Shown: positions 16,227-64,000 of the stretch, piece by piece | How positions within the stretch are numbered: position 1 is the first letter of the stretch | Layout: each line of letters starts with the position of its first letter | Virus record (IMG/VR): IMGVR_UViG_3300025289_000028 | Location: 5,342 to 69,341 of that record | Direction: 5' to 3' (one strand) | Source: a virus | Length of the DNA: 64,000 bases | The notes under the pieces: generated by a model | Database searches by the model: none | Told to the model about the DNA's origin: nothing | The model's input: only the letters and a program-made list of their open reading frames with translations | Made by a program: the position numbers and the translations under genes

Positions 16227-16379
16227 ATGAAAACAAAAAAACAAAGACGCGAAAGAGTTAATACAACAATTAAAGAAAGTACAATTGATAAATTTAATCA
16301 ATTTTGTGAGGATAATAATATTAACAAATCTAAATTAATAGAAAAACTTATTAAAGAACATATTTCTAACAATATGTGA
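16227..16379 (+). CDS. ribbon-helix-helix (CopG/Arc-like) small DNA-binding protein, 50 aa (not in ORF track)
   Basis: MKTKKQRRERVNTTIKESTIDKFNQFCEDNNINKSKLIEKLIKEHISNNM*: a basic N-terminus, a beta-strand, then two helices. Paralog of 16424..16573. Confidence 0.55.
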   Translation: MKTKKQRRERVNTTIKESTIDKFNQFCEDNNINKSKLIEKLIKEHISNNM

Positions 16380-16423
16380 GTTTTACTTTTTTAGTACCTA
16401 TTTAGTATTAAATAACAAATAAT

Positions 16424-16573
16424 ATGAAAACAGATAAAAGAGTACAATTTCCACTAACATTATCTAGTGAACTTAGAAAGGAGTTTGATAATTTTTGTGA
16501 AGAAAGAGCTATTAATAAATCACAATTAATAGAATGGTTAATATTGCAATACATTGGAAAAAATGAAAAATAA
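16424..16573 (+). CDS. ribbon-helix-helix (CopG/Arc-like) small DNA-binding protein, 49 aa (not in ORF track)
   Basis: MKTDKRVQFPLTLSSELRKEFDNFCEERAINKSQLIEWLILQYIGKNEK*: the classic RHH pattern. Overlaps the annotated start of the GIY-YIG gene. Confidence 0.55.
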   Translation: MKTDKRVQFPLTLSSELRKEFDNFCEERAINKSQLIEWLILQYIGKNEK

Positions 16574-17648
16574 AGAAAGAAAACCAATGGGTTATTGGAC
16601 AAAAGAAAATTGTGAGAAAGAAGCATTAAAATACAGCTCAAGAAGCAATTTTGAAAGAGGTTCAAATGGAGCTTATGATAAATCTTTAAAAAACAATTGG
16701 TTAAATGATATTTGTAAACATATGATTACTAAAAAGAAACCAAACGGATATTGGACAAAAGAAAAATGTTTAGAAGAGGCATTAAAATATAGAACAAAAA
16801 CAGATTTTGCGAAAAAATCCAGTGGAGCATATGATTCTGTTTATAGAAATAAATGGGTTGAAGAATGTTGTTCACATATGGAAATTCTTGGAGATTTATA
16901 TAAAAGACTTATTTATGTAGCTGTTTTTGCAGATAATCATATTTATGTTGGTTTAACTGGAAATCCAAATAAAAGATTTGATGAACATTTAACTGATAAT
17001 AGATGCATTGTTTATAAACACATTAATAGAACAGAGTTAAAACCAAAATTTATAAAATTAACAGATTATTTGGATAACGAAAATGCCTCAATACAGGAAG
17101 GTGTTTTTAAAGAAAAATATGAAAAAGAAGGATATGTTATTTTAAATATAGCAAAAACTGGTTCCCTTGGAAGTGCTCCAAGAAAATGGACAAAAGAAAA
17201 ATGTACAGAAGAAGCTAAAAAATACGAATCTCGTTCTGAATTTAAAATAAAAAATAATTCTGCATATAGTGCCGTCATAAGAAATAACTGGGGAGATGAT
17301 TGTTGTAAACACATGGTTAGACGTAAAAAACCAAATGGCTATTGGAATATTAAAGAAAATTGTATAAATGTAGCTCTTCAATGTGAAAGCAGAACAGAAT
17401 TTATTCAAAAATATCCACGAGCACATGATTATGCTTGTAAAAATAAATGGCTTGAAGAAATTTGTTCTCATATGAAATTACTGAAAGAAATTTGGACTTT
17501 TGAAAAAATTTACAATATTGCAAAAAATCATAAAACTCTTTTTGAATTCAGGACAAAGAACAAAAGAGACTATGAAATTTTACGTTCTAATTTAGAATGG
17601 AAAGAAAAAATTTATACAGAATTTGGTTGGAAATCTCGTAAAAAATAA
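16554..17648 (+). CDS. GIY-YIG homing-endonuclease-like protein with four tandem ~45-aa repeats
   Basis: Central 'LIYVAVFADNHIYVGLTGNPNKRFDEH' is a GIY-YIG catalytic motif. Flanking repeats follow (K/R)PNGYWTKE.C.EEA.KY..R.EF....SAY...RN.W.D..C.HM (x4). The true start may be the internal Met near 16584. Confidence 0.7.
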   Translation: MEKMKNKERKPMGYWTKENCEKEALKYSSRSNFERGSNGAYDKSLKNNWLNDICKHMITKKKPNGYWTKEKCLEEALKYRTKTDFAKKSSGAYDSVYRNKWVEECCSHMEILGDLYKRLIYVAVFADNHIYVGLTGNPNKRFDEHLTDNRCIVYKHINRTELKPKFIKLTDYLDNENASIQEGVFKEKYEKEGYVILNIAKTGSLGSAPRKWTKEKCTEEAKKYESRSEFKIKNNSAYSAVIRNNWGDDCCKHMVRRKKPNGYWNIKENCINVALQCESRTEFIQKYPRAHDYACKNKWLEEICSHMKLLKEIWTFEKIYNIAKNHKTLFEFRTKNKRDYEILRSNLEWKEKIYTEFGWKSRKK

Positions 17649-17691: not shown

Positions 17692-18186
17692 ATGGAAGAC
17701 AAAAAATACACTTTTTTCTGGAAAACCGAATCACCGTTTTCTAACTGGCACCACGCCGAATTCACAATTGACGGAGTTAAATTTAAGAACACAGAAATGC
17801 ATATGATGTGGAAGAAAGCTATGTTATTTGGAGATGCAGACACAGCAGAAGATATTTTAAAAGCAAAACACCCAAGAGATTGCAAAGATTTTGGTAGAAA
17901 AGTAAAAGGATTTGATAAGAACATTTGGGAAGAAAATTGTAAACAATTTGTTTATGATGGGAATTACGCAAAATTCACTCAAAATCCGACTTTATTGAAA
18001 GCTTTAATGGCTACCGGCAACACAAAATTAACTGAAGCAAGTCCGTTTGATAAAATTTGGGGAATTGGGCTTTCTGAAACTGATGCAAAAAATATTCCTG
18101 AAGAAAAATGGAACGGGACAAATTGGTTAGGAGAAATTTTAACTACGCTCAGAGAAAATCTAAAAGAACAAAGTTTAAAAAAGTAA
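17692..18186 (+). CDS. NADAR-family protein (YbiA-like, DUF1768)
   Basis: 'FFWKTESPFSNWHHAEF...FKNTEMHMMWKKAMLFGD...NPTLLKALMATGNTKLTEASPFDKIWGIG' matches the YbiA/NADAR signature blocks. Confidence 0.7.
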   Translation: MEDKKYTFFWKTESPFSNWHHAEFTIDGVKFKNTEMHMMWKKAMLFGDADTAEDILKAKHPRDCKDFGRKVKGFDKNIWEENCKQFVYDGNYAKFTQNPTLLKALMATGNTKLTEASPFDKIWGIGLSETDAKNIPEEKWNGTNWLGEILTTLRENLKEQSLKK

Positions 18187-19493: not shown

Positions 19494-19530
19494 CTCCTCC
19501 TAAAATTTGCTTTTTAGGGGGTTTTTTGTT
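19494..19530 (+). terminator. Rho-independent terminator
   Basis: cctcctaaaa-tttgc-ttttaggggg hairpin followed by a T6 run (gttttttgtttt). Confidence 0.7.
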
Positions 19531-19541
19531 TTATTTGCGTC

Positions 19542-23563: not shown

Positions 23564-24307
23564 TTATTCAATTCTTGTTATATTTTTATTTTCATCAATT
23601 TCAAAAATCATAGGTTTATTTTGAATTTCATATCTAAGATTTAAAACAGATGCATTCACAAAATGAACTCCATCTATGAATTTATATCCGGCATGCTCGT
23701 GAATGTGTCCAAAACTTACAAGCTTCAAATTTTTCAATTCATATATCCTTTTTAGTAAATCTTTACATCCAACCTGTTCTCCTCTAATAGTAGAATCTAA
23801 AATAGAATAAGGTGGTCCATGAAGTATTAAGAATTCAACGTCATCAGGTATAGCATCCCAATATCTTTTTATCTTTTCTCCTCTATCAACATTAAACGCC
23901 CAATTATATCCAAAAGTAGGTTGAACTGGTTCTCCGTAAAATTTAATTCCATCAATAGTAACGCCTTGACTTTCAAGATAAATAATATTTGGATATTTTT
24001 TTAATAATTCTTGAGCTATGCTTCTTTTTTGTTCAAAAAGTCGGTCATGATTTCCTGGAACTAAAATCTTATGAGTATATGGAAGTTTTGAATACCATGC
24101 TAAAAAATTATCAATCTCATTTTCGCTTCCACTCATAGAAATATCTCCTGAACATATAATTACGTCGGCTTCTGCAGGTAAATAAACTCCAGAGATAATG
24201 TATTCTTTTACATATTCATCATCAAATTTCTCTCCTTGTTTAAGTATATATATTCCATTGTGCTTTGAGTGACTATCACTCATTAATACAATTTTGGTTT
24301 TTTTCAT
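23564..24307 (-). CDS. metallophosphoesterase (calcineurin-like phosphoesterase)
   Basis: Blocks GDISMSG, GNHD, ILHGPP and GHIHEH are the canonical MPP motifs. Confidence 0.8.
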   Translation of the reverse strand: MKKTKIVLMSDSHSKHNGIYILKQGEKFDDEYVKEYIISGVYLPAEADVIICSGDISMSGSENEIDNFLAWYSKLPYTHKILVPGNHDRLFEQKRSIAQELLKKYPNIIYLESQGVTIDGIKFYGEPVQPTFGYNWAFNVDRGEKIKRYWDAIPDDVEFLILHGPPYSILDSTIRGEQVGCKDLLKRIYELKNLKLVSFGHIHEHAGYKFIDGVHFVNASVLNLRYEIQNKPMIFEIDENKNITRIE

Positions 24308-36906: not shown

Positions 36907-37181
36907 TGAAAAAAATTAATCACGATGAAATTTCAGTACTAAAACGTATAGTACTTATAGAAAAAAGTTATTATTTTAAAAAAGGTGATACCGTTAGAAT
37001 AAATACTAAAATTATAGAGCCTTATTATTATTGGCGTGAATTTAAAGAAAGTTTAGGGACTGTATTTTCCTGTGATAAAGAATGGAACGAAGTAACAATA
37101 TTATGGTTTACTACAAATGATAGAGTAGGATTACCGTCATTATGGGATTCTTTTAATTTAATTAGAGTTGATAAGGATTGA
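36906..37181 (+). CDS. hypothetical protein (91 aa); N-terminal ...LKRIVLIEK motif
   Basis: Last gene of the plus-strand array. Confidence 0.5.
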   Translation: MKKINHDEISVLKRIVLIEKSYYFKKGDTVRINTKIIEPYYYWREFKESLGTVFSCDKEWNEVTILWFTTNDRVGLPSLWDSFNLIRVDKD

Positions 37182-38285
37182 CTTTAAATAATCAGTCAAT
37201 ATAGTCTCAATGTTCTTAAAGTCCCAGTAAGGAATTCTTAATAATGGAATGTTATTGTTTTTGCAGTATTCGTTTTTTATTTGGTCGTTTAGTTGCCTTG
37301 CTTTAAATGTTTTTTCACCACCAAAGTATTTAAAAGCTTTAAAATGTTGAGCTCCATCAAATTCTACACAAGTATTATAATCTGGTAAATAAAAATCGAA
37401 AGGTAATTTAAAAACATTTTTACAATCATCAAAAGTTTTTTGATATGTAAATATTATATTTTTTTCTTCTAAAATTTTAGTAATTTTAATTTCTCCTTTT
37501 GAAAAATTTGAACACTTTGGACAACCATTTCCAAATAAATGCATTGCTGGCCTTTGTTTGAAAATACCATGTTTATTACAAATTATATCTACTTTTGTTT
37601 GGTTATTTACATATTTTACATTATCATAATTATAAGTATTTCCATGAACTTCAAAAGATTTTGCCAAAAATATTTCTTTAGTTCCAACATATCCACCACT
37701 ACATATGTCACATCCGCGTCCTCTTAAATGGTCTTTGGCTAATTGACTGAACTTTCCATGTTTATTACAAATTATTGTTACTTTATTATCATTTTTTGTG
37801 TATAAAACTTCAGAATAATCGTATTTATTATTATGTTTTTCATTAGATTTTTTTATAAAATCTTCTTTTGCATATTGATACGTTCCTGAACAATAAATAC
37901 AACCCCTTCCACTTAAATGACTATCAGGTCTTTGATTAAATTCTCCATGCTCTGGACAAATTATAATAATTGGTTGTTTATTATTTTTATATACCACTTT
38001 TGAATAATCGTATTTATTATCATGAACTTCATTTGATTTAATAATAAATGATTCTAAAGTATGTTTACTTGGTAATGTTCTTTCTCCTTCGTACATACAT
38101 TTCTTACAATTATATCCTTTCATGTGATTTCTTGGAGATTGTAAAAATTCGCCATGTTTCTCACATATAATTGTGGATTTTACTGAGGAATTAACATATT
38201 CAAATTTTGAATAATCGTACCTTTCTCCATGAATTTGTTTTGCATTAAAAATAAATTTTTCAATACTTATAGCTTTCCCACTCAT
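37158..38285 (-). CDS. Homing-endonuclease-like protein with 5 tandem Zn-ribbon modules and a C-terminal Vsr-like PD-(D/E)xK nuclease domain
   Basis: Repeats follow YDYSK(V/F)EY.N...K..IIC..HG.F.Q.P..H..G.GC..C. C-terminal 'LPFDFYLPDYNTCVEFDGAQHF' resembles the Vsr 'FVDGCFWH' core. Paralog of 52833..53987. Confidence 0.65.
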   Translation of the reverse strand: MSGKAISIEKFIFNAKQIHGERYDYSKFEYVNSSVKSTIICEKHGEFLQSPRNHMKGYNCKKCMYEGERTLPSKHTLESFIIKSNEVHDNKYDYSKVVYKNNKQPIIIICPEHGEFNQRPDSHLSGRGCIYCSGTYQYAKEDFIKKSNEKHNNKYDYSEVLYTKNDNKVTIICNKHGKFSQLAKDHLRGRGCDICSGGYVGTKEIFLAKSFEVHGNTYNYDNVKYVNNQTKVDIICNKHGIFKQRPAMHLFGNGCPKCSNFSKGEIKITKILEEKNIIFTYQKTFDDCKNVFKLPFDFYLPDYNTCVEFDGAQHFKAFKYFGGEKTFKARQLNDQIKNEYCKNNNIPLLRIPYWDFKNIETILTDYLKSILINSN

Positions 38286-38425: not shown

Positions 38426-38537
38426 TTTTAGTGTTTTGGTAATTATAAAACATTATTATTATATTGTAAAGTATTACTTATAATTATAAATAGTATAAAA
38501 AATTTTACATTCTAATAAAATGTATTACATTTGTAAA

Positions 38538-40925
38538 ATGGCAAAGAAAAAAATAGGTTCCGATAATCAGAAATACGTTATGGTGGTAGAGTCTCCATCA
38601 AAAATAAAAAAGATAAAAGAGATATTAAAAGAAATAGGATATCATAATTATGATTGTATAGCTTCGGTGGGACATATCTTGGAATTAGATAAAGGTGCAA
38701 AAGGAGTGGATAAAAAAAATAATTTTGAACCACATTACATTGTATCTGAAAGCAAGAAAGATGTTGTTAAAACATTAAAAGAATTTAAGAAAAATGGATA
38801 CGAATTTATTCTTGCTTCTGACTTAGACCGAGAAGGCTCATTTATAGCTCATTCAGTGGCTATAACTTTAGACCTTCCATTAGAAACAACTAAACGTGCT
38901 GTATTTAATGAGATAACAAAAACAGCAGTAAAAAACGCAATAGATAATCCTGGAATAATTGATAAAAATTTAACTAATTCTCAACAAGCAAGACGTGTTT
39001 TGGATAGAATTGTAGGGTTTGATTTAAGTGGGTTGCTCTGGAAAAAAGTAGCCCCTAATTTAAGTGCTGGAAGGGTGCAAAGTAGCTCCGTTAGACTGAT
39101 AGTTGAAAAAGAAAGGGAAATAAAATCTTTTGAATCGGATGTAGATTTTAAAACTACTGGAGCTTTTGAAACAAAAAAAAGAGTTTCAATAAAATCTATT
39201 TTAGATAAAAGATTTAAAGATAAGCAAACTGCACATAAATTTTTAAATGAATGTATTGGAAAAGAATTTATAGTTAACAATAAAGAAACAAAAATTGGAA
39301 AACGTACAGCTTCAGCACCATTTACAACAAGTACATTACAACAAACTGCTGGAAATAAATTAGGATTTAGCGTTAAAAGATGTATGGATACTGCTCAATC
39401 GCTTTTTTCCAAGGGGTTTATTTCTTATCACAGAACTGATTCTGTAATGCTTTCAGAAGATTCTATTAAAGAGATTTCCACACAAATAAAATCAAAATAC
39501 GGAGATAAATATTTATGCAACAAGCAATATAAGAACAAAAACAAAGGAAGTCAGGAAGCTCATGAAGGAATCCGTTGTTCTCATTTCGAACAAGAAACAA
39601 TATCTGGCTCTTCTGATGAAGTTAGACTTTATGATTTAATATATAAAAGAGCTTTGGCTTCACAAATGAGTGATGCAGTTACAGAACTTACAAAAATTAC
39701 TATTGGCACACAAAACATAAAAGAACAATTTGTAACTAAAGGGACAATTATAAAATTTGATGGGTTTTTAAAAGTATACAACGACACAGATGATAATAAA
39801 GAAGATAATGAAAATGAAGATAGTGATTCTAAAATCCTTCCACCTTTAGAAAAAGGTGATAAACTTTATTATAAAGAATTAGTTTCATCACAATCATTTT
39901 CAAAACCAGTACCAAGATTTAATGAACCTGGACTTGTTAAATCCATGGAGGAGCTTCAAATTGGCAGGCCATCAACCTACGCTACGATAATCCAAACAAT
40001 CCAAGACCGTGGATACGTTGAAAAAAAAGATATTGAACCAAAGGAACGTAAAATCCAAACATTAACTCTATCATCAACAAACAATAAAATAGAAGAAAGT
40101 GAAGTAATAGATAAATTTGGAGGAGAAAAAGGAAAATTAGTTCCAACAGAAGTTGCCGGAGTGGTAGTTGACTATCTAAAAAAACATTTCCCGGACATCA
40201 TGGATTATAAATTTACTGCAGAGACTGAAGAAAAACTTGATGAGATAGCAGAAGGAAATAAAGAGTGGCAACAGATGATTGGAGAGTTTTATGAACCATT
40301 CAGCAAGACATTAAAAGAAGCTGCAGGCGAAGAAGGAAAAGCCGGAATAAGAGAAATTGGCAAAGACCCAAAAACAGGCAAAATAATCTACGCTCGTTTA
40401 GGTAAATTCGGACCAATGATACAAATGGGAGAGAGTGTTGACAAAAAAAGTGATGAAGAAAAGCCAAAATTCGCCAAATTAAAAGAAGGACAAACAATAG
40501 AAAACATCACTATAGAAGAGGCATTAGAACTTCTTATATGGCCAAGAAATATGGGTAAACATAAAGGTGAAGACGTTTCAATTGCAATAGGACGCTTCGG
40601 CCCATACGTCAAAGTCGGTCAAATCTACAGTTCAATTTCTAAAGAAGAAGACCCTTCCACAATATCTTTAAAACGTGCAATAGAAATCTTTGAAGAGAAA
40701 AGTGCAGCAAAGAGTAGTAATACCATTAAAGAATTTAAAAAAGAAGGCATAAGCGTACTTAATGGTAAATTCGGAGCGTACATAAAATCTAAGACAGGCA
40801 ACCATAAAATTCCTCTAGGAAAAGAAGCTGATACTTTAACTTTAAAAGATTGTGAAGAAATTATTAAAGAATCTAAAAATTCACCGAAGAAGAAAAAATT
40901 CACTAAATTCAAAAAGAAAGAATAA
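38538..40925 (+). CDS. topA: DNA topoisomerase I (type IA)
   Basis: Toprim 'VMVVESPSKIKKI' and 'DLDREGS'. 'SAGRVQSSSVRLIVEKEREI' is a conserved TopA block. Active-site 'GFISYHRTDS'. C-terminal 'GRFGPYVKVG' and 'NGKFGAYIKSK' repeats. Start placed at MAKKK (38538); the ORF-track start is 38520. Confidence 0.9.
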   Translation: MAKKKIGSDNQKYVMVVESPSKIKKIKEILKEIGYHNYDCIASVGHILELDKGAKGVDKKNNFEPHYIVSESKKDVVKTLKEFKKNGYEFILASDLDREGSFIAHSVAITLDLPLETTKRAVFNEITKTAVKNAIDNPGIIDKNLTNSQQARRVLDRIVGFDLSGLLWKKVAPNLSAGRVQSSSVRLIVEKEREIKSFESDVDFKTTGAFETKKRVSIKSILDKRFKDKQTAHKFLNECIGKEFIVNNKETKIGKRTASAPFTTSTLQQTAGNKLGFSVKRCMDTAQSLFSKGFISYHRTDSVMLSEDSIKEISTQIKSKYGDKYLCNKQYKNKNKGSQEAHEGIRCSHFEQETISGSSDEVRLYDLIYKRALASQMSDAVTELTKITIGTQNIKEQFVTKGTIIKFDGFLKVYNDTDDNKEDNENEDSDSKILPPLEKGDKLYYKELVSSQSFSKPVPRFNEPGLVKSMEELQIGRPSTYATIIQTIQDRGYVEKKDIEPKERKIQTLTLSSTNNKIEESEVIDKFGGEKGKLVPTEVAGVVVDYLKKHFPDIMDYKFTAETEEKLDEIAEGNKEWQQMIGEFYEPFSKTLKEAAGEEGKAGIREIGKDPKTGKIIYARLGKFGPMIQMGESVDKKSDEEKPKFAKLKEGQTIENITIEEALELLIWPRNMGKHKGEDVSIAIGRFGPYVKVGQIYSSISKEEDPSTISLKRAIEIFEEKSAAKSSNTIKEFKKEGISVLNGKFGAYIKSKTGNHKIPLGKEADTLTLKDCEEIIKESKNSPKKKKFTKFKKKE

Positions 40926-46100: not shown

Positions 46101-48158
46101 TTAAGCAAATAATCCAAAAAATCCTTTTTTATTTTTTTGATGTGACTTTGAATACTTAGGAACATACTCTTTTCCTTCTGATTTTGCTTTTTCCATCTCA
46201 ATATTTTCCTTTTTTTCTCTTTCTTTTCTTATTTTCATGACTTCTTCGTCACTTAAATAATCATGCATTCTGGTTATGCTTCCGGCAGAAGGTGTTAAAT
46301 CACTGTTTCTGGAAGAAGATTGTATTTTGTTAATTTGTATAAACTCCAGTACTCCTTCAATTAACTCTCTTGAGGCTCTTGAGTTACGATAACCTTTTAA
46401 CTGATCAAATTCAAGGCCTCCATTTTTACGATATAAACCCAAAGTTGCTCTTTCATTTGAAATTATATGTTGTACATGGACAGCCATATAATCTCTATTA
46501 ACAATTCGATCAAGGTATGTATAAATACAATGATTCATAAGCATACCTTCTTTATTTAAGTCCTCAAGAGTTGGAATAACTGTCAATTCAACATCGCCAA
46601 CAATTGTATTTATGTTTGACAATTCCTTAGCTGCTTTTTTATAAAATTCTGCTTTTTTAGCATCTTTAATAGCTCCATATCTCGCTGCAAGGTCATCATG
46701 TATAGTTTTTAACTCGACATTACTTTTAATACGATAAATATAATTATCAGAAAGCTCCAACAGCCTCATTGAGTTAATAGTATCTGTATACAAATGCAAA
46801 TAATCAGAATTGCCACCTTTTACAACATCATCTATATTTCTATCTAAGATGTGTTTAATGTTTTTGATTGTAAAACTGGCATTATCTTGAATTCTTTGTT
46901 TTTCTAAATTTCTGTAGAATTTATAAATACGCTCAGTATCATAACTTTGAAACAAAGTTTCAATATCAGTTTTGGAAATATATTTTTTACGATATATACT
47001 AAGCAAAATTTCCATATCCTGTGGAGTGCTTATGTGTTTATAAATCAAAGGACTAACCTTTAAATAGTTAGGACTATCTTCTATGGTTTTTGATATTTTA
47101 ACGACTTTTTTAGCAACTTCCTTAGTATCATTATCTCCACTTCCTTTTAACATACCGTTAATATCGCAATTCATAGAAATTTCCAATATTTTAGTAGGAG
47201 ATGTTGCTTCAAACAATTCATAAACTTGAGAAGATAAAATGTTTTTACTGTGGATAAATTCTTTAAAAAACACTTGTCCTTTAGTAAGTAATATTGTTGA
47301 AATACTCTGGAAGTCAGATACACAAAGAAAAATTTTAGACAATTCAACATATCTGGATAAATACCCACCTATATTTAATTTTTTCTCTTCTTTTTTTCCG
47401 TCTCCAAAACCGCTATCAACTTTATTATAAGTTATTGACTCTCCGGTTATTTCATCTGTTTTTTCAAAAACATCATGATTATTATAAGCATAACTTATTT
47501 GAGGAATCAATTTCTTAATATCGTCAAGGTCAGTTACTACAACATCAATTTTGTTAAAAAAATTGAATATATTTATAAGACCACCATAAGAAGCAAAATC
47601 ATAAAATTGGAAAAAATGTTCTAATCTTCCTATTTTTGAAAGACCTACTTCTTCCGTAATGTTATTCACATCATTCTGCTTATTATTTACTGATATTTTA
47701 TCAAGTAATGGCTTTTCTAAGAAAATTTCAGTTTTGTTTTTGCTTCTATCAAATTTAATTGAATCGGTTCTGACAATATTATCATTTAATTTATCAGTAG
47801 AAGAATCGTATCTAACAAATGTTTTTTGTCTTAAAAGAGTTATTGTTTTTCCTTTTTCTTCTACTAAAAATGAAACTTTATAAATTTCATCTTCATCTGG
47901 AATAATAAGAAATAAACGATTTTTACTGTCATAAACGCTTCCGCACTTATCACATTTAATTGTTTCAATACTATGCTTGTCTTCAACAGTAGTGTCGTGT
48001 TTTTTTACAAGCAATCTTCTCGCTTTACTTTTTAGCTCTTTTTTATTACCGCAATGGCAGTACATTCTTTGACTGTCTTTTCCTTCTGAGCTTATTTTAT
48101 TTGTATCGACCATAGTTTTGCCGATATCTACCAAAAATGAATGTTGTTTCATTACCAT
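46101..48158 (-). CDS. large hypothetical protein (685 aa) with an N-terminal Zn-ribbon (CHCG...CDKCG). The C-terminal domain is shared with 15190..16176 (possibly PcfJ-like)
   Basis: Long minus-strand ORF. Confidence 0.65.
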   Translation of the reverse strand: MVMKQHSFLVDIGKTMVDTNKISSEGKDSQRMYCHCGNKKELKSKARRLLVKKHDTTVEDKHSIETIKCDKCGSVYDSKNRLFLIIPDEDEIYKVSFLVEEKGKTITLLRQKTFVRYDSSTDKLNDNIVRTDSIKFDRSKNKTEIFLEKPLLDKISVNNKQNDVNNITEEVGLSKIGRLEHFFQFYDFASYGGLINIFNFFNKIDVVVTDLDDIKKLIPQISYAYNNHDVFEKTDEITGESITYNKVDSGFGDGKKEEKKLNIGGYLSRYVELSKIFLCVSDFQSISTILLTKGQVFFKEFIHSKNILSSQVYELFEATSPTKILEISMNCDINGMLKGSGDNDTKEVAKKVVKISKTIEDSPNYLKVSPLIYKHISTPQDMEILLSIYRKKYISKTDIETLFQSYDTERIYKFYRNLEKQRIQDNASFTIKNIKHILDRNIDDVVKGGNSDYLHLYTDTINSMRLLELSDNYIYRIKSNVELKTIHDDLAARYGAIKDAKKAEFYKKAAKELSNINTIVGDVELTVIPTLEDLNKEGMLMNHCIYTYLDRIVNRDYMAVHVQHIISNERATLGLYRKNGGLEFDQLKGYRNSRASRELIEGVLEFIQINKIQSSSRNSDLTPSAGSITRMHDYLSDEEVMKIRKEREKKENIEMEKAKSEGKEYVPKYSKSHQKNKKGFFGLFA

Positions 48159-52832: not shown

Positions 52833-53987
52833 TTACTCAATACAGTTGAATTCTTTCTCTAAAATTTCATTTATATTTTTCAAATTTAAATATGAAATTC
52901 TAATAAGTTTTATATTGTTATTTAAACAATATTTATTTTTTATGTTATCAGTTCTTTGTATATCCAAAAAATTTTTTTCTCCTCCAAATTTTTTGACTGA
53001 TTCAAAATGCTGTCTCCCATCAAATTCTATACAAGTATTGTATTTTGGTAAATAAAAATCAAATGGTAATTTATTTGATATTCCTATGCAATCATTAAAT
53101 TTATGTTGATGTATAAATTCGATGTTATTCTTTTTTAAAAATTCAATTATACCTTTTTCTCCCTTTGATATTTTTGAAAAATTACATTTTTTACATCCAT
53201 ATCCATTCAAATGTGAGCTTGGAGTTATTTGAAAATCTCCATGTAATGGACAAATTACTATTACCTTAGTTTTGTTTTGAACGTAGTTAACTTTTGAATA
53301 ATCGTATTTTGGTTCACATGTTTTTTCATTTATGTGTATAATTTTCGATTTTTCAATAAAATATTCAGAAGTATTAGCTCTTTTTAAGGAACTTTCTTCA
53401 AATCCGCAAAAAGGACATTGGTGTCCAGCTAAATGTTTATCTGGTGATTGCTCAAAAACACCATGTTTCTTACAAATTATCTTAACTTTAATTATAGAAT
53501 TAACATATTCAACTAACTCATAATTATATGTATATCCATAAATAATTATAGATTTTTCAATAAACTCTATCGTGTTTCTTAATGCGGTTCCGCCACACTT
53601 ACCACATCCATGCCCACCCAAATGACTTGCTGGAATTTGTTCAAAAACTCCATGATTATTACATATTATTTTAACTTTTGTATTATTGTTAAAATATTCT
53701 ACTAATGAATAATCATATATATTACTATGAACTTTGTTAGACTTTTCAATAAATTCTTCGGTTGTTAATTTTTTGAGTCCAGAACATTCAACACATCCAC
53801 AACCAGATAAATGATCATTTGGCGTTTGCTCAAAAACACCATGTTCTTTACAAATTATTTTAATCTTAGTTTTGCTATTTTTATATTCAACTAAACTGTA
53901 ATCATATTTTGATTCATTAGTTATTCTGTTTACATGTATAATTTTAGCTCTTTCAATAAACTCTTCTGTTGTTAATTTTTTTGACAT
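52833..53987 (-). CDS. Homing-endonuclease-like protein with tandem Zn-ribbon modules and a C-terminal Vsr-like PD-(D/E)xK domain (paralog of 37158..38285)
   Basis: Same repeat architecture. C-terminal 'LPFDFYLPKYNTCIEFDGRQHF...FGGEKNF...YCLNNNIKLIRI'. Confidence 0.65.
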   Translation of the reverse strand: MSKKLTTEEFIERAKIIHVNRITNESKYDYSLVEYKNSKTKIKIICKEHGVFEQTPNDHLSGCGCVECSGLKKLTTEEFIEKSNKVHSNIYDYSLVEYFNNNTKVKIICNNHGVFEQIPASHLGGHGCGKCGGTALRNTIEFIEKSIIIYGYTYNYELVEYVNSIIKVKIICKKHGVFEQSPDKHLAGHQCPFCGFEESSLKRANTSEYFIEKSKIIHINEKTCEPKYDYSKVNYVQNKTKVIVICPLHGDFQITPSSHLNGYGCKKCNFSKISKGEKGIIEFLKKNNIEFIHQHKFNDCIGISNKLPFDFYLPKYNTCIEFDGRQHFESVKKFGGEKNFLDIQRTDNIKNKYCLNNNIKLIRISYLNLKNINEILEKEFNCIE

Positions 53988-57785: not shown

Positions 57786-58193
57786 TTATTTTTTAGAATT
57801 GGAAAATTCTTCTAAAATAGCAGTGATATTTTTTCTTCCTGCAGTACTTTGAGAATGCACTTTAAATGCCGGGAGATTAAGATTGTTTGTTTTACAAAAT
57901 TCTATTATCCACTGAGCTGAATGAAATCCTGTAGGAATAGTTGTTAAGGAGTAGTCAAATTCTTTATACCCAGTCTTTTCTCCGATAGTATAGTGTTCAT
58001 CATCGAGATCATGATCAAAAGATATAATTGCTGGCCATTTTCCTTCTGAAAAAAAATTTGTTATAGTTTTAACAAATTCATCATGAGAGCGAACTACAAC
58101 CCATTTCAATTTAAGATAGTCAGTATCTTTTAAAATATTAAAAGCGTCATATGGATGCCGGAAATCATCGAGATAAATATGTAAACTATCCAT
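57786..58193 (-). CDS. hypothetical protein (135 aa)
   Basis: Minus-strand ORF. Confidence 0.5.
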   Translation of the reverse strand: MDSLHIYLDDFRHPYDAFNILKDTDYLKLKWVVVRSHDEFVKTITNFFSEGKWPAIISFDHDLDDEHYTIGEKTGYKEFDYSLTTIPTGFHSAQWIIEFCKTNNLNLPAFKVHSQSTAGRKNITAILEEFSNSKK

Positions 58194-60467: not shown

Positions 60468-61610
60468 TTAATGCAATTCATCATATTCTCTAATGCGAGA
60501 ATAAACACCTTTTAAATGTTGTGTTTTTTCACTATCCGGCTCAGCTGATTTAACATTCTTAAGTTCTGTAATAGATTTCCTTTCTTCTTCTGTTAATGTC
60601 TTTGGAACAAAAATATTTACATAAACCATTTGATCGCCTCTTTGAGAAGGATTATTTATATTAGGAATTCCTTTACCTTTTAAACGTAGGATTTTGCCAG
60701 ACTCTGTTCCTGGCTCTATTTTGACTTTAACGTTTCCATCAACAGTATTTATTTCTAAAGAATCATTCCCAATCACAGCATCATAATAACTAATAAAAAC
60801 ATCAGTTAAAATATTATTGCCTTCTCTTTTAAAAATAGGATGTTCAATCTCTGTTATTTCAATAATAAGACTTCCGTTATTCCCTCCGCCTCTTGCTTCG
60901 TTTCCAACGTTATTAATGTTTAAATTTATTCCTTCTACTGCACCGGCTGGAATATCAAATTCTACTTCATCACTATTCGAAATCATCCCTTGTCCTTTAC
61001 AGGAATTGCATTTTTCTTTAATTTCTTTTCCTTCTCCACCACAATGCTGACAAGTGTATTGTTGAATCATCATTCCCATTTGCGTATTCTGTCTTATTGT
61101 AACAATACCAGTACCATCACATACACTGCATTTTACTATCGATTCTTTATTTTTAGCACCAGTTCCAGAACAGTCTGGACAATTTATTTCTCTTTGTAAT
61201 TTTACTTTTTTATGTGCACCTGTAATTAATTCATGAATAGTTAATGAAATTCTTATTTTTAAATCTCCACCTCTTCTAGTTTTTGTTTGTTGAGCATGTC
61301 TACTACTACCACCTCTAAACCCAAATGATTCAGCATGCCTTCTAAATAATTCATCCGCCATACTGTGAGGATTAAATCCAAAACCACCATCATTAAACAT
61401 GCCATCGTTTTCATATTTAGCTTTCTTTTCTGGGTTGGATAAAATATCATATGCGTTAGAAATTTTTTTAAAAGTATTTTCATCCCCACCCTTATCTGGG
61501 TGATGTTTTTTTACTAATTTTCTATAAGATTGTTTTATTTCTTCTTGAGATGCTGTTTTGTCTACTTCAAGAATATTATAGAGACTTTCTTTTTCAGACA
61601 TATTTTCCAA
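60468..61610 (-). CDS. dnaJ: molecular chaperone DnaJ (type I Hsp40)
   Basis: J-domain with the 'HHPDKGGD' HPD motif, a Gly/Phe region, four CxxCxGxG zinc-finger repeats and a C-terminal domain. Confidence 0.9.
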   Translation of the reverse strand: MENMSEKESLYNILEVDKTASQEEIKQSYRKLVKKHHPDKGGDENTFKKISNAYDILSNPEKKAKYENDGMFNDGGFGFNPHSMADELFRRHAESFGFRGGSSRHAQQTKTRRGGDLKIRISLTIHELITGAHKKVKLQREINCPDCSGTGAKNKESIVKCSVCDGTGIVTIRQNTQMGMMIQQYTCQHCGGEGKEIKEKCNSCKGQGMISNSDEVEFDIPAGAVEGINLNINNVGNEARGGGNNGSLIIEITEIEHPIFKREGNNILTDVFISYYDAVIGNDSLEINTVDGNVKVKIEPGTESGKILRLKGKGIPNINNPSQRGDQMVYVNIFVPKTLTEEERKSITELKNVKSAEPDSEKTQHLKGVYSRIREYDELH

Positions 61611-62520
61611 TTTTTCTATTTAAATAATATATTTCATTTTTTTTAACCCACTCTATTAAACTTAATACTGGTTTGTTAGATATAGCAAAAGAATATATTT
61701 TACCTTTTTGATGTATTTTTTGATTCACATCAACAAATAATGTTGTTTTTAATGTTTCTTTAATCCATTCAAGCATTTTTAATGTGCCTAAAAATGTTAT
61801 TCTTAAATTATTATTAATTTTATATATTGAACCATCCCCATCTAATAACCCAATTATAAATGCTATTTTTTGATTTGAATTTTTTATTGTTGGAGGCACT
61901 GCTGTAAATGTTTTTTTATTAGTAATTAAAAAATTTATTTTTAATTTATTTATTATATTTTTTGAATATATGTCTATAGTTGCTGATTTATGTTCAGTAC
62001 CAAAAGAGTTGTTATCTCTAATGAATATTGGAGCATTAGAATTTATTGTTTTTTTAAAAACTTCTAAATGCTCAACATCTTTACTACTTAATTTTATACT
62101 TAATAAAGAATTAATAGGTTTTACACATCCATCAGCTGATATAAAACCAGCCCAATAACAATTTTCAAGTGAAAAATCATCAAAAAAATTATGATTAACA
62201 TTGTATTTATATTTTTTATAAACAAATCTAGCTTCATTATTTCTCTTCAATCCTAAAAATGTTGCTCTATTTAGAAGAGAACTCCTAGTTCTGTTTTTAA
62301 ATAATTCAATTAATAATCTTGTTGGTTTAAGTGGAAAATTTTCACGTAATAAATCATCCTCATCTTTTGACCATTTAATAGTGCATATACCTAATTTATA
62401 TAATTTAGATTTAACTACACTTATTTTTTTTTCTAATTTTTCTGCTATTTCATTTAATGTGATTTTTTTTACATTTTCTATTAAAAAATCAATTTCTTTT
62501 TCTGTCCATTTCTTTCTCAT
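61594..62520 (-). CDS. LAGLIDADG-family homing-endonuclease-like protein with N-terminal HTH repeats
   Basis: 'AGFISADGCV' and 'IGLLDGDGSIY' are two LAGLIDADG motifs. The N-terminal 'WTEKEIDFLIENVKKITLNEIAEKL' and 'WSKDEDDLLRENF' form HTH/Myb-like repeats. Located between dnaJ and clpP. Confidence 0.7.
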   Translation of the reverse strand: MRKKWTEKEIDFLIENVKKITLNEIAEKLEKKISVVKSKLYKLGICTIKWSKDEDDLLRENFPLKPTRLLIELFKNRTRSSLLNRATFLGLKRNNEARFVYKKYKYNVNHNFFDDFSLENCYWAGFISADGCVKPINSLLSIKLSSKDVEHLEVFKKTINSNAPIFIRDNNSFGTEHKSATIDIYSKNIINKLKINFLITNKKTFTAVPPTIKNSNQKIAFIIGLLDGDGSIYKINNNLRITFLGTLKMLEWIKETLKTTLFVDVNQKIHQKGKIYSFAISNKPVLSLIEWVKKNEIYYLNRKIGKYV

Positions 62521-62604
62521 TTTTTATATTTAATAATAAATATGAAAAAAAAATAAATCTATTACGCTTTATCTAATTATTTAAATTTGTACTTAAAAAT
62601 ATTA

Positions 62605-62649
62605 ATTTTTTAAAAAGGTAAAACGGAATGTTGTATTATACAACACTCC
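62605..62649 (-). terminator. Probable terminator downstream of clpP
   Basis: Minus-strand hairpin GGAGUGUUGUAUA-AUACAACAUUCC (12-bp stem with 1 mismatch) followed by GUUUUACCUUUUUAAAAAA. Confidence 0.55.
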
Positions 62650-62686
62650 GCTTACTTGAGATTTGGTTATTTTTGCTCCCTACCTC

Positions 62687-63409
62687 TTATTTTCTTTTTA
62701 TTAGAACTTCGTCAATTAATCCTTCTCCAACTGCTTGCTCTGCTGAAACCCAATAATCTTTTTGACATTTATTGAATATTGTTTCATAATCCTGTCCTGT
62801 ATTTTTAGAAAGTTTTTCATACAATCTTTTTTCCATTATTTGACATTGTTCATAACTTACTTTTAAATCTTTCATTTTTCCTTCAAATCCAGATGCTAAT
62901 TCGTGCATCATTATTCTTGAACTTGGTAATGCATATCTTTTACCTTTCGTCCCACTTGATAAAAGCATTGTACCCATACTTGCAACAACTCCCATTCCAA
63001 CCGTTTTAATATCACACGAAACAAGCTCGAATGTGTCTAAAATTGCGCTTCCTGAGTCAATTTCCCCGCCCGGACTCATGATATAAAATGTAATATCTTT
63101 TTTACCTTCAGTCATTTCTAAAAACAATATTTGTGCTATTGCAATATTAGAAGTTTCAGTAGTTACCGGATGGCAAAAATAGATTATTCTATCTTTTAAA
63201 AGACGAGAATACACATCATATGATATTAATTGTCCAGAACTTGATTCTTCTATTACACTTGGAGATAGATTTTTAATAGAATGGTCAATTAATTTGTTGG
63301 TCGAACTGGAGATTAGCTTTTTATTTATGTTGGCGCTTTTTCCTGCTATTTCAAATTTTTCAATAATGTTTTGCATATTATATTTTTTAGTTTGTTTATG
63401 TGTTGACAA
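62687..63409 (-). CDS. clpP: ATP-dependent Clp protease proteolytic subunit with a ~60-aa N-terminal extension
   Basis: 'IMSPGGEIDSGSAILDTF...GVVASMGTMLLSSGTKGKRYALPSSRIMMHE' gives the ClpP Ser-His-Asp triad context. Confidence 0.85.
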   Translation of the reverse strand: MSTHKQTKKYNMQNIIEKFEIAGKSANINKKLISSSTNKLIDHSIKNLSPSVIEESSSGQLISYDVYSRLLKDRIIYFCHPVTTETSNIAIAQILFLEMTEGKKDITFYIMSPGGEIDSGSAILDTFELVSCDIKTVGMGVVASMGTMLLSSGTKGKRYALPSSRIMMHELASGFEGKMKDLKVSYEQCQIMEKRLYEKLSKNTGQDYETIFNKCQKDYWVSAEQAVGEGLIDEVLIKRK

Positions 63410-63511: not shown

Positions 63512-64000
63512 ATGAACGAGGCTAAAATCAGTAAAATGAAAAAAATTATAATATATGGATTATTCGAAGCTAATACACCAGAGGAAATAAAATATATAGG
63601 AAAAACAGAAAGAACAATAAAAGGACGATTAAGTGAACATAAATATATTTCAAAGTTTAAAAAAACCTATAAAGATAAGTGGATGCAGTCTATAATAGTT
63701 AAAGGCGGAAAAATAGATATTAAAATAATTGAAATAGTTAACGAACATAACTGGGAAGAAAGAGAAAGATTTTGGATAAATTTTTACAAAGAAAAAGGTT
63801 GCAAACTAACCAATCTACAAATTGGTGGACAATTTGGACCTCGTGGCGGAGGTAAAATTAAATATTTCATAACTTATGAAGAATGTAAAAAATGGATTAA
63901 CGAAAAATATCCAGATTTAATATTTGAAAGTGATTTCAAAAAAATAAAATATAAATTACCAACTCATATACCGAAATGCCCAAAAGATGTTTTTAAAAAT
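63512..64000 (+). CDS. GIY-YIG homing-endonuclease-like protein; the 3' end runs off the window
   Basis: From ATG 63512: 'KIIIYGLFEANTPEEIKYIGKTERTIKGRLSEH' is a GIY-YIG motif. No stop occurs before position 64000. Not in the ORF track. Confidence 0.6.
   Translation, partial: MNEAKISKMKKIIIYGLFEANTPEEIKYIGKTERTIKGRLSEHKYISKFKKTYKDKWMQSIIVKGGKIDIKIIEIVNEHNWEERERFWINFYKEKGCKLTNLQIGGQFGPRGGGKIKYFITYEECKKWINEKYPDLIFESDFKKIKYKLPTHIPKCPKDVFKN

What the first reader, a model, noticed from the sequence alone, without database searches (positions are those of the whole stretch)
17692..18186. Phage-encoded NADAR (YbiA-like) protein, a candidate counter-defence enzyme
The sequence matches YbiA/NADAR signature blocks well. 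NADAR enzymes remove guanine ADP-ribosylation installed by DarT-type toxins. In a phage, such a gene is a plausible anti-DarTG or anti-ADP-ribosylation factor. A nucleotide-metabolism role is equally possible.
Basis: partly seen in the sequence, partly recalled or inferred. Interest (0 to 1): 0.55.

Follow-up and report, generated by a model that had tools for sequence, protein, structure and literature searches.

The report
Ordinary phage NADAR ADP-ribose-removing enzyme
The gene is real and encodes an intact NADAR enzyme, a type that removes ADP-ribose from DNA or RNA bases, in what appears to be a ~500-kb phage; such genes are common in large phages and their anti-DarTG1 role is already published, so this is an ordinary new example.

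Summary
Window 17692-18186 (+) is a 164-aa ORF that matches Pfam NADAR end to end (E 5e-50). An AlphaFold model (pLDDT 96) matches only the two solved NADAR folds: Phytophthora NADAR bound to ADP-ribose (TM 0.89) and E. coli YbiA (TM 0.81).

The mapped catalytic residues are present (E35, K42, E115) and invariant in 33 homologues. dN/dS against sister phages is 0.09-0.19. The protein is the Glu type. It is not the Asp type of DarG1 antitoxins or the His type of T4 gp30.3. Its closest tested relative is AdfN-Bas60 (36% identity, E 7e-30), a phage NADAR shown to neutralise DarT1.

The window is 99.8-100% identical to a 503-kb single-contig NCBI assembly with huge-phage-like gene content. No capsid or terminase gene was seen.

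The gene stands alone, with no ADP-ribosyltransferase gene beside it. The best reading is an orphan-antitoxin-type counter-defence hydrolase. Roles on RNA/tRNA or in NAD+/ADP-ribose small-molecule metabolism remain open. They are suggested by tRNA-binding-domain fusions and by NAD+-salvage, Macro and SIR2 genes next to relatives.

Phage NADARs are widespread (722 phage records, at least 509 IMG/VR contigs) and already characterised. This is a new member of a known kind, of low interest.

The parts
17692..18186 (+). CDS of a stand-alone 164-aa NADAR-domain protein (Glu type), including the stop codon
   Evidence: ORF. Pfam NADAR E 5.2e-50, full length. AlphaFold2 pLDDT 96.2. Foldseek hits 8bau (TM 0.89) and 2b3w (TM 0.81). 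dN/dS 0.09-0.19 against sister phages.
17794..17796 (+). Codon GAA for Glu35, the conserved catalytic glutamate. It corresponds to PnNADAR E43, E. coli C7 DarG1 E88 and T4 gp30.3 E36.
   Evidence: Alignments. Invariant in 33 homologues. Mutational evidence for the equivalent residue is in PMC11543638 and PMC11825919.
17815..17817 (+). Codon AAA for Lys42, the phosphate-coordinating lysine. It corresponds to PnNADAR K50 and E. coli C7 K95.
   Evidence: Alignments. Invariant. K95 is essential in E. coli C7 NADAR (PMC11543638).
18034..18036 (+). Codon GAA for Glu115 in the motif T-E-A-S-P-x-D. This is the second active-site acid (PnNADAR E125). It is Glu as in the YbiA and general NADAR families, not Asp (DarG1) or His (T4-like).
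   Evidence: Alignments. Invariant. The family-defining role of this position is described in PMC11543638 and PMC12945103.
18192..18572 (+). Co-directional 126-aa gene of unknown function that starts 5 nt after the NADAR stop. It is syntenic with NADAR in sister phages. A functional link is not shown.
   Evidence: 76-82% identical copies lie downstream of NADAR in L097 and L098. In L097 two other genes sit between them. It has no Pfam or PADLOC match and only weak matches to PHROGs of unknown function. Only 1 of 80 IMG/VR NADAR loci has a homologue.

Best explanation
The ORF encodes a catalytically intact, stand-alone NADAR-family ADP-ribosyl N-glycohydrolase of the Glu type, related to PnNADAR and AdfN-Bas60. 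It is carried by what appears to be a ~500-kb huge phage.

The inferred mechanism is as follows. The enzyme binds the ADP-ribose moiety through Lys42, Arg69, Trp79, Asp120 and Trp123. It uses Glu35 and Glu115 at the distal ribose to hydrolyse the N-glycosidic bond between ribose C1'' and a nucleobase, either guanine N2 or possibly cytosine.

The inferred biological role is that of an orphan antitoxin (AdfN type). During infection it would strip ADP-ribose that host DarT1-like or pierisin-like ADP-ribosyltransferases place on phage nucleic acid, so that replication can continue.

Shown here: gene integrity, family membership, fold, residue conservation, purifying selection, and the absence of a cognate toxin gene nearby. 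Inferred: the substrate, the timing and the counter-defence role.
For: Family and fold:
- Pfam, NCBIfam, PHROG and PDB sequence matches.
- A high-confidence model whose only significant PDB fold matches are NADAR structures, the best one bound to ADP-ribose.

Active site:
- E35, K42, R69, W79, E115, D120 and W123 align with the ADP-ribose-contacting and catalytic residues of PnNADAR.
- E35, K42 and E115 are invariant in 33 homologues.

Closest tested relative:
- 36% identity (E 7e-30) to AdfN-Bas60. That protein neutralised DarT1 in E. coli and restored plating of three phages on DarTG1 hosts (PMC11825919).
- All NADAR families tested so far hydrolyse guanine-ADP-ribose on DNA and RNA.

Selection:
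- dN/dS 0.09-0.19 against sister phages.

Context:
- Phage-like setting with no ART or DarT domain found in the window.
- The same genome carries other ADP-ribose-processing genes: a PARG-like macrodomain just upstream of the window and a cREC domain protein.
- Relatives occur in 722 phage records and at least 509 IMG/VR contigs.
Against: - No activity or phenotype can be tested here.
- The host is unknown, so it is unknown whether it has DarTG1 or any guanine-directed ART.
- E. coli YbiA and T4 gp30.3 hydrolyse guanine-ADP-ribose in vitro yet do not rescue cells from DarT1 when expressed alone. In vitro activity of the family therefore does not guarantee the in vivo role.
- Neighbourhoods of relatives are dominated by NAD+-salvage, Macro, SIR2 and Nudix genes. 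Some close homologues are fused to a tRNA-binding domain. These point to other or additional substrates.
- TIGR02464 (riboflavin-intermediate N-glycosidase) also passes its cut-off.
- No virion gene was found on the stretches of the contig that were seen.
Confidence: 0.6

Rival explanations
1. The enzyme acts mainly on low-molecular-weight ADP-ribose derivatives or NAD+-related metabolites, such as immune signals or toxic ADP-ribose products. It would be part of a phage NAD+/ADP-ribose network rather than acting on modified DNA.
For: In the 80 best IMG/VR loci, genes within 6 kb of NADAR include NAMPT (29 loci), Macro (21), a Nudix-domain protein (18), SIR2 (18), a phosphoribosyltransferase-domain protein with weak ribose-phosphate pyrophosphokinase-domain hits (15) and YAcAr SLOG (9). 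NADAR fusions to Nuc_deoxyri_tr2 also occur. Sister phages carry an NMN transporter and a CTP_transf_like/AAA_28 protein 3-7 kb downstream of NADAR. Iyer et al. argue for this role for phage Macro and NADAR domains (PMC9503650; PMC7824862).
Against: No NADAR has yet been shown to process such small molecules. All tested ones act on base-linked ADP-ribose in nucleic acids. In this window the NADAR gene is not next to any NAD+-salvage gene.
Confidence: 0.17
2. The physiological substrate is ADP-ribosylated RNA, especially tRNA. The enzyme would protect or repair the translation apparatus from RNA-targeting ART toxins.
For: Four homologue clusters at about 60% identity are NADAR::tRNA_bind fusions. 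In L096 and L100 the gene lies among Thg1, Polbeta, RNase_T and tRNA_bind genes. An RlaP gene lies just upstream of the window and a CCA-adding-type gene just beyond its 3' end. NADARs are the only hydrolases known to reverse guanosine ADP-ribosylation in RNA (PMC11833690).
Against: The window protein has no RNA-binding domain and no RNA-repair neighbour within 5 kb. Fusions in relatives do not fix the substrate of the stand-alone form. AdfN-Bas60 works against a DNA-modifying toxin.
Confidence: 0.12
3. It is an antidote or regulator for the phage's own ADP-ribosyltransferase, limiting self-damage from a phage-delivered ART.
For: The same contig encodes an ART-PolyVal domain protein (387 aa) about 6 kb beyond the window's 3' end. 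ART-hydrolase pairs are common (YarT-YbiA and DarT1-DarG1).
Against: The ART gene is about 52 kb from NADAR, on the other strand and in a different gene block. No ART is next to NADAR in the 80 related loci. Known phage ARTs of the Alt type target host proteins, which NADARs are not known to de-modify (own knowledge).
Confidence: 0.06
4. It is a housekeeping YbiA-type N-glycosidase that destroys reactive riboflavin-biosynthesis intermediates.
For: TIGR02464 'riboflavin biosynthesis intermediates N-glycosidase' scores 156.7 bits against a cut-off of 73.7. The protein is 29% identical to E. coli YbiA.
Against: No riboflavin-pathway domains are in the window. The protein is closer to PnNADAR and AdfN-Bas60 than to YbiA. 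The TIGR02464 hit does not place it with YbiA proper, given the closer PnNADAR and Bas60 matches. YbiA itself also hydrolyses guanine-ADP-ribose.
Confidence: 0.03

Closest known systems
AdfN-Bas60 (bas60_0111, Escherichia phage PaulScherrer), an anti-DarT factor NADAR (Johannesman et al. 2025, PMC11825919)
   Same: Both are stand-alone phage NADARs of the Glu type (VEASPYD versus TEASPFD). They are 36% identical over the full length, E 7e-30. Neither has an adjacent toxin gene. Both phages also carry other NAD+/ADP-ribose genes: macrodomain, sirtuin and NAMPT in Bas60, and a PARG-like gene and a cREC gene here.
   Different: Bas60's protein is 183 aa, with two insertions that are absent here. 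The host and phage lineage are unrelated: a 150-kb E. coli myovirus versus a ~500-kb uncultured element from groundwater and other metagenomes. Activity is demonstrated only for Bas60.
Phytophthora nicotianae NADAR (PDB 8bau) of the general 'NADAR' family (Schuller et al. 2023, PMC11543638)
   Same: It is the best solved-structure match by sequence (E 1.2e-16; profile E 1.4e-28) and by fold (TM 0.89, rmsd 2.1 A). All ADP-ribose-contacting residues except R93 are conserved.
   Different: It is a eukaryotic protein of 189 residues. The position equivalent to R93 is Cys83, with Lys84 next to it. Identity is only about 28%.
E. coli YbiA (PDB 2b3w), a YbiA-type NADAR and riboflavin-intermediate N-glycosidase
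   Same: Same fold (TM 0.81). Both have Glu at the two catalytic positions. Both pass TIGR02464 territory.
   Different: Identity is 29%. YbiA lacks the loop at residues 128-140 that is present here. YbiA is a chromosomal housekeeping gene in a LexA-controlled operon and does not rescue from DarT1 in vivo.
T4 gp30.3 (AdfN-T4), the classical 'phage NADAR' family
   Same: Both are phage-encoded NADAR cores. The first catalytic Glu (T4 E36) and the Lys and Gly-Arg motifs align.
   Different: Similarity is barely detectable (BLASTP E 0.01 over 31 residues). T4 has His where this protein has Glu115. T4's protein needs the T-even infection context for full activity.
DarG1 antitoxin NADAR (BC4488 family) of DarTG1
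   Same: Same superfamily and, presumably, the same chemistry: guanine-N2-ADP-ribose hydrolysis.
   Different: DarG1 has Asp instead of Glu at the second catalytic position, an N-terminal extension, and an operon with DarT1. None of these is found here. No DarG model in PADLOC and no DarG1 structure in the PDB is matched.

Membership tests
NADAR superfamily (Pfam PF08719 / DUF1768) | Full-length match to the family HMM above the curated threshold | tested here: met
   170.3 bits against 35.1, E 5.2e-50, profile positions 1-163 of 163
NADAR superfamily (Pfam PF08719 / DUF1768) | NADAR fold: helical core with small beta-hairpins | tested here: met
   AlphaFold2 pLDDT 96.2. The only significant PDB matches are 8bau (TM 0.89) and 2b3w (TM 0.81). 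The model is predicted, not solved.
NADAR superfamily (Pfam PF08719 / DUF1768) | Conserved catalytic Glu and phosphate-binding Lys (PnNADAR E43/K50; E. coli C7 E88/K95) | tested here: met
   E35 and K42 align with them and are invariant in 33 homologues
NADAR superfamily (Pfam PF08719 / DUF1768) | Hydrolysis of base-linked ADP-ribose (guanine-ADP-ribose) | not testable with these tools
   Needs a biochemical assay
Glu-type NADARs (YbiA family in the sense of de Souza and Aravind; 'NADAR' plus 'YbiA-type' families of the Ahel laboratory) | Glutamate at the position of PnNADAR E125 (Asp in DarG1, His in T4-like) | tested here: met
   E115 in TEASPFD; invariant
AdfN (phage orphan anti-DarT1 NADAR) | Phage-encoded NADAR without a cognate ART gene next to it | tested here: met
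   No ART or DarT Pfam domain in the window. The nearest ART (ART-PolyVal) is about 52 kb away. Phage origin is inferred from context, not from a virion gene.
AdfN (phage orphan anti-DarT1 NADAR) | Homology to an experimentally validated AdfN | tested here: met
   36% identity, E 7e-30, to AdfN-Bas60. Only marginal similarity to AdfN-T4. AdfN-Bas32 was not compared.
AdfN (phage orphan anti-DarT1 NADAR) | Neutralises DarT1 or restores phage growth on DarTG1 hosts | not testable with these tools
   Needs toxicity-rescue and plaque assays
DarG1 antitoxin NADAR (BC4488 family) | Operon with DarT1; catalytic Asp; N-terminal extension | tested here: not met
   No DarT nearby. Glu rather than Asp. 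A 164-aa core only. No PADLOC DarG hit.
T4-like 'phage NADAR' family (gp30.3) | His at the second catalytic position; close sequence relationship to gp30.3 | tested here: not met
   Glu115 where T4 has His. BLASTP E 0.01 over 31 residues.
YbiA-type riboflavin-intermediate N-glycosidase (TIGR02464) | Score above the NCBIfam cut-off | tested here: met
   156.7 bits against 73.7. The protein is nevertheless closer to PnNADAR and AdfN-Bas60 than to YbiA, so this hit alone does not assign the YbiA function.
YbiA-type riboflavin-intermediate N-glycosidase (TIGR02464) | Association with riboflavin biosynthesis (fusion to or neighbourhood with ribA/ribD) | tested here: not met
   No riboflavin-pathway domains among about 115 window ORFs or among the recurrent neighbours in 80 related loci
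DS32_2 NADAR family anti-phage protein (NF053876) | Score above the curated cut-off | tested here: not met
   40.2 bits against a cut-off of 240

The most novel reading that the evidence does not exclude
This Glu-type NADAR clade of huge phages may not chiefly be an anti-DarT1 DNA eraser. It may instead be a de-ADP-ribosylase for tRNA/RNA (guanine or cytosine). It would work within a multi-enzyme phage 'ADP-ribose eraser' set that also includes a PARG-like macrodomain and a cREC protein, and in relatives ARH, tRNA-binding and Thg1 genes, protecting translation from RNA-targeting ART toxins.
Probability: 0.15. Interest if true: 0.5.

Novelty: new member of a known kind. Interest (0 to 1): 0.2.

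Why it matters
It matters little on its own. The finding adds one more intact NADAR to the many already seen in medium and jumbo phages. Iyer et al. report the domain in about 48% of such phages. The anti-DarTG1 function of phage NADARs is already published.

There is modest value in two points:
- A ~500-kb uncultured element, probably a huge phage, carries several ADP-ribose-processing genes: NADAR, a PARG-like macrodomain, a cREC protein and its own ART.
- Close relatives of this NADAR are fused to tRNA-binding domains or paired with ARH hydrolases and NAD+-salvage genes. This gives concrete candidates for testing whether Glu-type phage NADARs act on RNA or small molecules as well as on DNA.

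Tried and rejected
1. Megablast of window 10-30 kb against the phage collection found no match. The element is not a catalogued phage.

2. A tblastn search with the 802-aa orphan protein against phages found no match.

3. I tried to prove phage identity through a terminase. A Terminase_6N protein lies 2 kb from NADAR in the related locus L096. A database search with it found none of the listed homologues on a 503,412-bp contig. This is inconclusive. Walking beyond the window is blocked because only window proteins can be looked up.

4. The promoter scan around the gene gave 26 matches against 31 expected by chance, so no promoter is claimed. One good terminator-like hairpin at 19496-19521 may end the co-directional block.

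5. I looked for a conserved partner gene. None of the window's neighbours recurs beside NADAR in 80 IMG/VR loci.

6. I looked for the sigma70-linked E. coli NADAR next to rpoD in O157 Sakai, to use as a reference. It was not annotated there, so this was dropped.

7. The supplement of PMC11825919 with accession numbers is not held. The Bas60 gene was found by reading the genome annotation instead. Bas32 was not retrieved; MZ501072 turned out to be Bas26.

8. Stop-codon recoding was considered because Lak-type megaphages appear among the hits. It was rejected for this window: 94% is coding under the standard code.

9. Rfam and tRNA scans of the window found nothing.

10. A DarG1 or DS32_2 assignment was rejected.

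Full report
**Observation.** Window 17692-18186 (+) is an ATG-to-TAA ORF of 164 codons that begins at the first start codon after the upstream stop.
- It matches Pfam NADAR (PF08719) over the entire profile: positions 1-163 of 163, 170.3 bits against a gathering score of 35.1, E 5.2e-50.
- It matches NCBIfam TIGR02464 at 156.7 bits against a cut-off of 73.7.
- It matches PHROG phrog_1017 at E 2.6e-52.
- Among solved structures, sequence search finds the Phytophthora NADAR 8bau (E 1.2e-16) and E. coli YbiA 2b3w (E 8.5e-6). With a profile of 33 homologues these become 1.4e-28 and 1.6e-17, and no DarG1-type structure is found.

Test 1, catalytic residues. From the HMMER and MAFFT alignments:
- Glu35 corresponds to PnNADAR E43, E. 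coli C7 E88 and T4 E36.
- Lys42 corresponds to PnNADAR K50 and C7 K95.
- Glu115 corresponds to PnNADAR E125.
- Arg69, Trp79, Asp120 and Trp123 match the ADP-ribose contacts R79, W89, D130 and W133 described in PMC11543638. Only R93 is replaced, by Cys83 with Lys84 adjacent.
- E35, K42 and E115 are invariant in an alignment of 33 homologues of 51-77% identity.

Test 2, structure. An AlphaFold2 model built from that alignment has mean pLDDT 96.2 and pTM 0.90. Foldseek against the PDB gives only two significant hits: 8bau, which is NADAR bound to ADP-ribose (E 2.9e-11, TM 0.89, rmsd 2.1 A), and YbiA 2b3w (E 1.2e-8, TM 0.81). The next hit has E about 2. Both tests are passed.

**Which NADAR type.** The Ahel laboratory divides the superfamily into general NADARs, YbiA-type, T4-like phage NADARs and DarG1 antitoxins. 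The families differ at the PnNADAR E125 position: Glu, Glu, His and Asp respectively. This protein has Glu.
- It is 36% identical (E 7e-30) to the Bas60 phage NADAR.
- It is 29% identical to YbiA (E 7e-13).
- It is barely alignable to T4 gp30.3 (E 0.01).
- It has no N-terminal extension.
- It has no hit to a DarG model in PADLOC; the only PADLOC hit is the candidate-system component PDC-M42C.
- It falls far below the cut-off of the DS32_2 anti-phage NADAR model.

It is therefore a Glu-type stand-alone NADAR, closer to PnNADAR and AdfN-Bas60 than to YbiA proper.

**The genome it sits in.**
- The window is 99.8-100% identical to an NCBI single-contig assembly of 503,412 bp (GCA_902731165.1, CACVIJ010000001.1). 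Window position 1 is at about record position 364,985.
- The identical NADAR protein is recorded on contigs in 49 blocks of the collection, from groundwater and other metagenomes, and on a second NCBI contig of 281 kb.
- The window has 29% GC. It is 94% coding under the standard code, with about 115 mostly small, co-directional ORFs. It has no tRNA or Rfam hits.
- It encodes DNA methyltransferases, YopX, DUF5662, RNase H, SSB, a DnaB/KaiC-like ATPase, a type IA topoisomerase, a PcfJ-like protein, a glucosaminidase, ClpP, DnaJ, and GIY-YIG, LAGLIDADG and HNH-type endonucleases.
- A related element whose NADAR is 68% identical, recorded on a 538-kb contig, has a terminase-like gene 2 kb from NADAR.

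All of this fits a huge phage. However, I did not see a capsid, portal or terminase gene on the stretches of this contig that I could read, and a search designed to find one was inconclusive. Phage origin is therefore very likely but inferred.

**Local context.** The gene lies in a co-directional block. It is separated by 43 nt from an upstream GIY-YIG endonuclease gene and by 5 nt from a downstream 126-aa gene of unknown function.

Sister phages L097 (NADAR 78% identical) and L098 (68%) keep the order 328-aa gene (minus strand), then NADAR, then the 126-aa gene, then the 165-aa gene. The cassette at 16227-17648, which holds two small ORFs plus the GIY-YIG endonuclease, is missing in L097. It is therefore a mobile insertion and not a functional partner.

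dN/dS for NADAR between the window and these phages is 0.09-0.19, so the gene is under purifying selection. No ADP-ribosyltransferase domain was found among the window's ORFs.

**Wider context.**
- At least 509 IMG/VR viral contigs encode relatives.
- 722 of 50,697 phage records do so, against 101 of 72,556 plasmid records.
- In the 80 best viral loci, none of the window's neighbours recurs next to NADAR.
- Other genes do recur within 6 kb: NAMPT (29 loci), Macro (21), a Nudix protein (18), SIR2 (18), a phosphoribosyltransferase-domain protein with weak ribose-phosphate pyrophosphokinase hits (15) and a YAcAr SLOG protein (9). There are also NADAR::Nuc_deoxyri_tr2 fusions.
- L097 and L098 carry an NMN transporter (PnuC family); a CTP_transf_like/AAA_28 (NadR-like) gene appears in full in L098 and as a partial AAA_28 gene at the end of L097, and RtcB only in L097.
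- L096 has an ARH-type hydrolase gene whose stop overlaps the NADAR start.
- Four homologue clusters at about 60% identity are NADAR::tRNA_bind fusions.
- The window's own genome also has a PARG-like macrodomain gene and an RlaP gene just upstream of window position 1, a cREC domain protein at 57786-58193 on the minus strand, and an ART-PolyVal gene about 6 kb past the window end.

**Mechanism and function.** Established knowledge:
- NADARs hydrolyse the N-glycosidic link between ADP-ribose and guanine N2 in DNA (PMC11543638).
- They do the same in RNA (PMC11833690).
- Glu-type members also remove cytidine-linked ADP-ribose (PMC12945103).
- Phage NADARs from three unrelated lineages counter DarTG1. 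AdfN-Bas60 and AdfN-Bas32 do so without other phage factors (PMC11825919).

The best-supported reading is therefore an orphan-antitoxin-type ADP-ribosylglycohydrolase that cleans phage nucleic acid of host-inflicted base ADP-ribosylation (confidence about 0.6). Identity, fold, residues, selection and orphan status are shown here. Substrate and role are inferred.

The rivals are:
- action on NAD+/ADP-ribose small molecules, as proposed by Iyer et al., supported by the neighbourhoods of relatives;
- action on tRNA or RNA, supported by the fusions;
- control of the phage's own ART;
- the YbiA housekeeping glycosidase role, for which there is no contextual support.

**Novelty and score.** NADAR domains were reported in about 48% of medium and jumbo phages (PMC9503650). 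Their anti-DarTG1 role has been published since 2025. This gene is a new, uncharacterised member of a known kind. Interest is low (0.2). The only mildly novel angle is the hint from relatives that this clade may act on RNA/tRNA or within a multi-enzyme ADP-ribose-erasing set.

Noticed in passing
window 16227-17648 (+): Two small ORFs, one with a weak RepB-RCR_reg hit, plus a 361-aa GIY-YIG endonuclease (phrog_20046) with visibly repeated motifs. Together they form a cassette immediately upstream of NADAR. The cassette is absent in sister phage L097 and present in L098, so it looks like a free-standing homing-endonuclease insertion.
   Followed up: partly
L015:6123-8020 (0.26-2.2 kb before window position 1): A PARG_cat_microb (bacterial-type PARG macrodomain) gene next to an RlaP nucleotidyltransferase and a small acetyltransferase. 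This is a second ADP-ribose-removing enzyme in the same genome. A TnpB (OrfB_IS605) gene lies at L015:2639-3850.
   Followed up: no
window 57786-58193 (-): A 135-aa protein with a cREC_REC domain (PF20274, E 6e-17). Iyer et al. linked this family to NAD+/ADP-ribose processing in jumbo phages.
   Followed up: no
L099:2479-3642 (about 5.7-6.9 kb beyond window position 64000, minus strand): A 387-aa ART-PolyVal ADP-ribosyltransferase-domain protein is encoded by the same contig. Nearby are a CCA-adding/PolyA_pol enzyme, a dCMP deaminase, a dUTPase with a faint LAGLIDADG hit and a ClpB-like AAA protein.
   Followed up: no
P0048, P0051, P0054, P0075; L100:6610-7470; L096:7030-8492; L079:6001-7017: Close NADAR relatives are fused to a tRNA-binding domain (about 60% identity). 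In another case an ADP_ribosyl_GH gene precedes NADAR with overlapping stop and start (68% identity). In another, NADAR is fused to a Nuc_deoxyri_tr2 domain. These hint at RNA or nucleotide substrates.
   Followed up: partly
L097:9845-14889 and L098:9975-15321: Sister phages carry a 675-aa TonB-dependent receptor and an NMN transporter (PnuC) a few kb downstream of NADAR; L098 also has a NadR-like gene (CTP_transf_like/AAA_28) and L097 an RtcB gene. This module is missing from the window.
   Followed up: no
window 23564-24307 (-): A metallophosphoesterase that matches PADLOC candidate PDC-S10 (E 1.5e-72). Its homologue is adjacent to NADAR::tRNA_bind in L100 and lies near NADAR in L096 (59% identity).
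   Followed up: partly
window 37158-38285 (-) and 52833-53987 (-): Two large proteins (375 and 384 aa) that share DUF723 and DUF4379 zinc-finger domains; whether they are paralogues was not tested. Homologues turn up in a few NADAR-bearing IMG/VR loci (L033, L056, L068).
   Followed up: no
window 38520-40925 (+), 46101-48158 (-), 60468-63409 (-): A type IA topoisomerase (801 aa), a PcfJ-like protein (685 aa), and a chaperone/protease group containing DnaJ and ClpP. These genes are more typical of cells or conjugative elements but are seen here in a phage-like context.
   Followed up: no
window 19496-19531 (+): A strong terminator-like hairpin (10-bp stem followed by a T-run) after the 68-aa ORF. 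It may end the co-directional block that contains NADAR. Promoter-like matches in the region are not above chance.
   Followed up: no
phage records listed: Many deposited phage genomes label NADAR homologues 'GTP cyclohydrolase II' or 'ribA/ribD-fused uncharacterized protein'. These labels probably carry over from the ribA/ribD-fusion origin of the TIGR02464 and COG3236 names (inference), which would make them misannotations.
   Followed up: no
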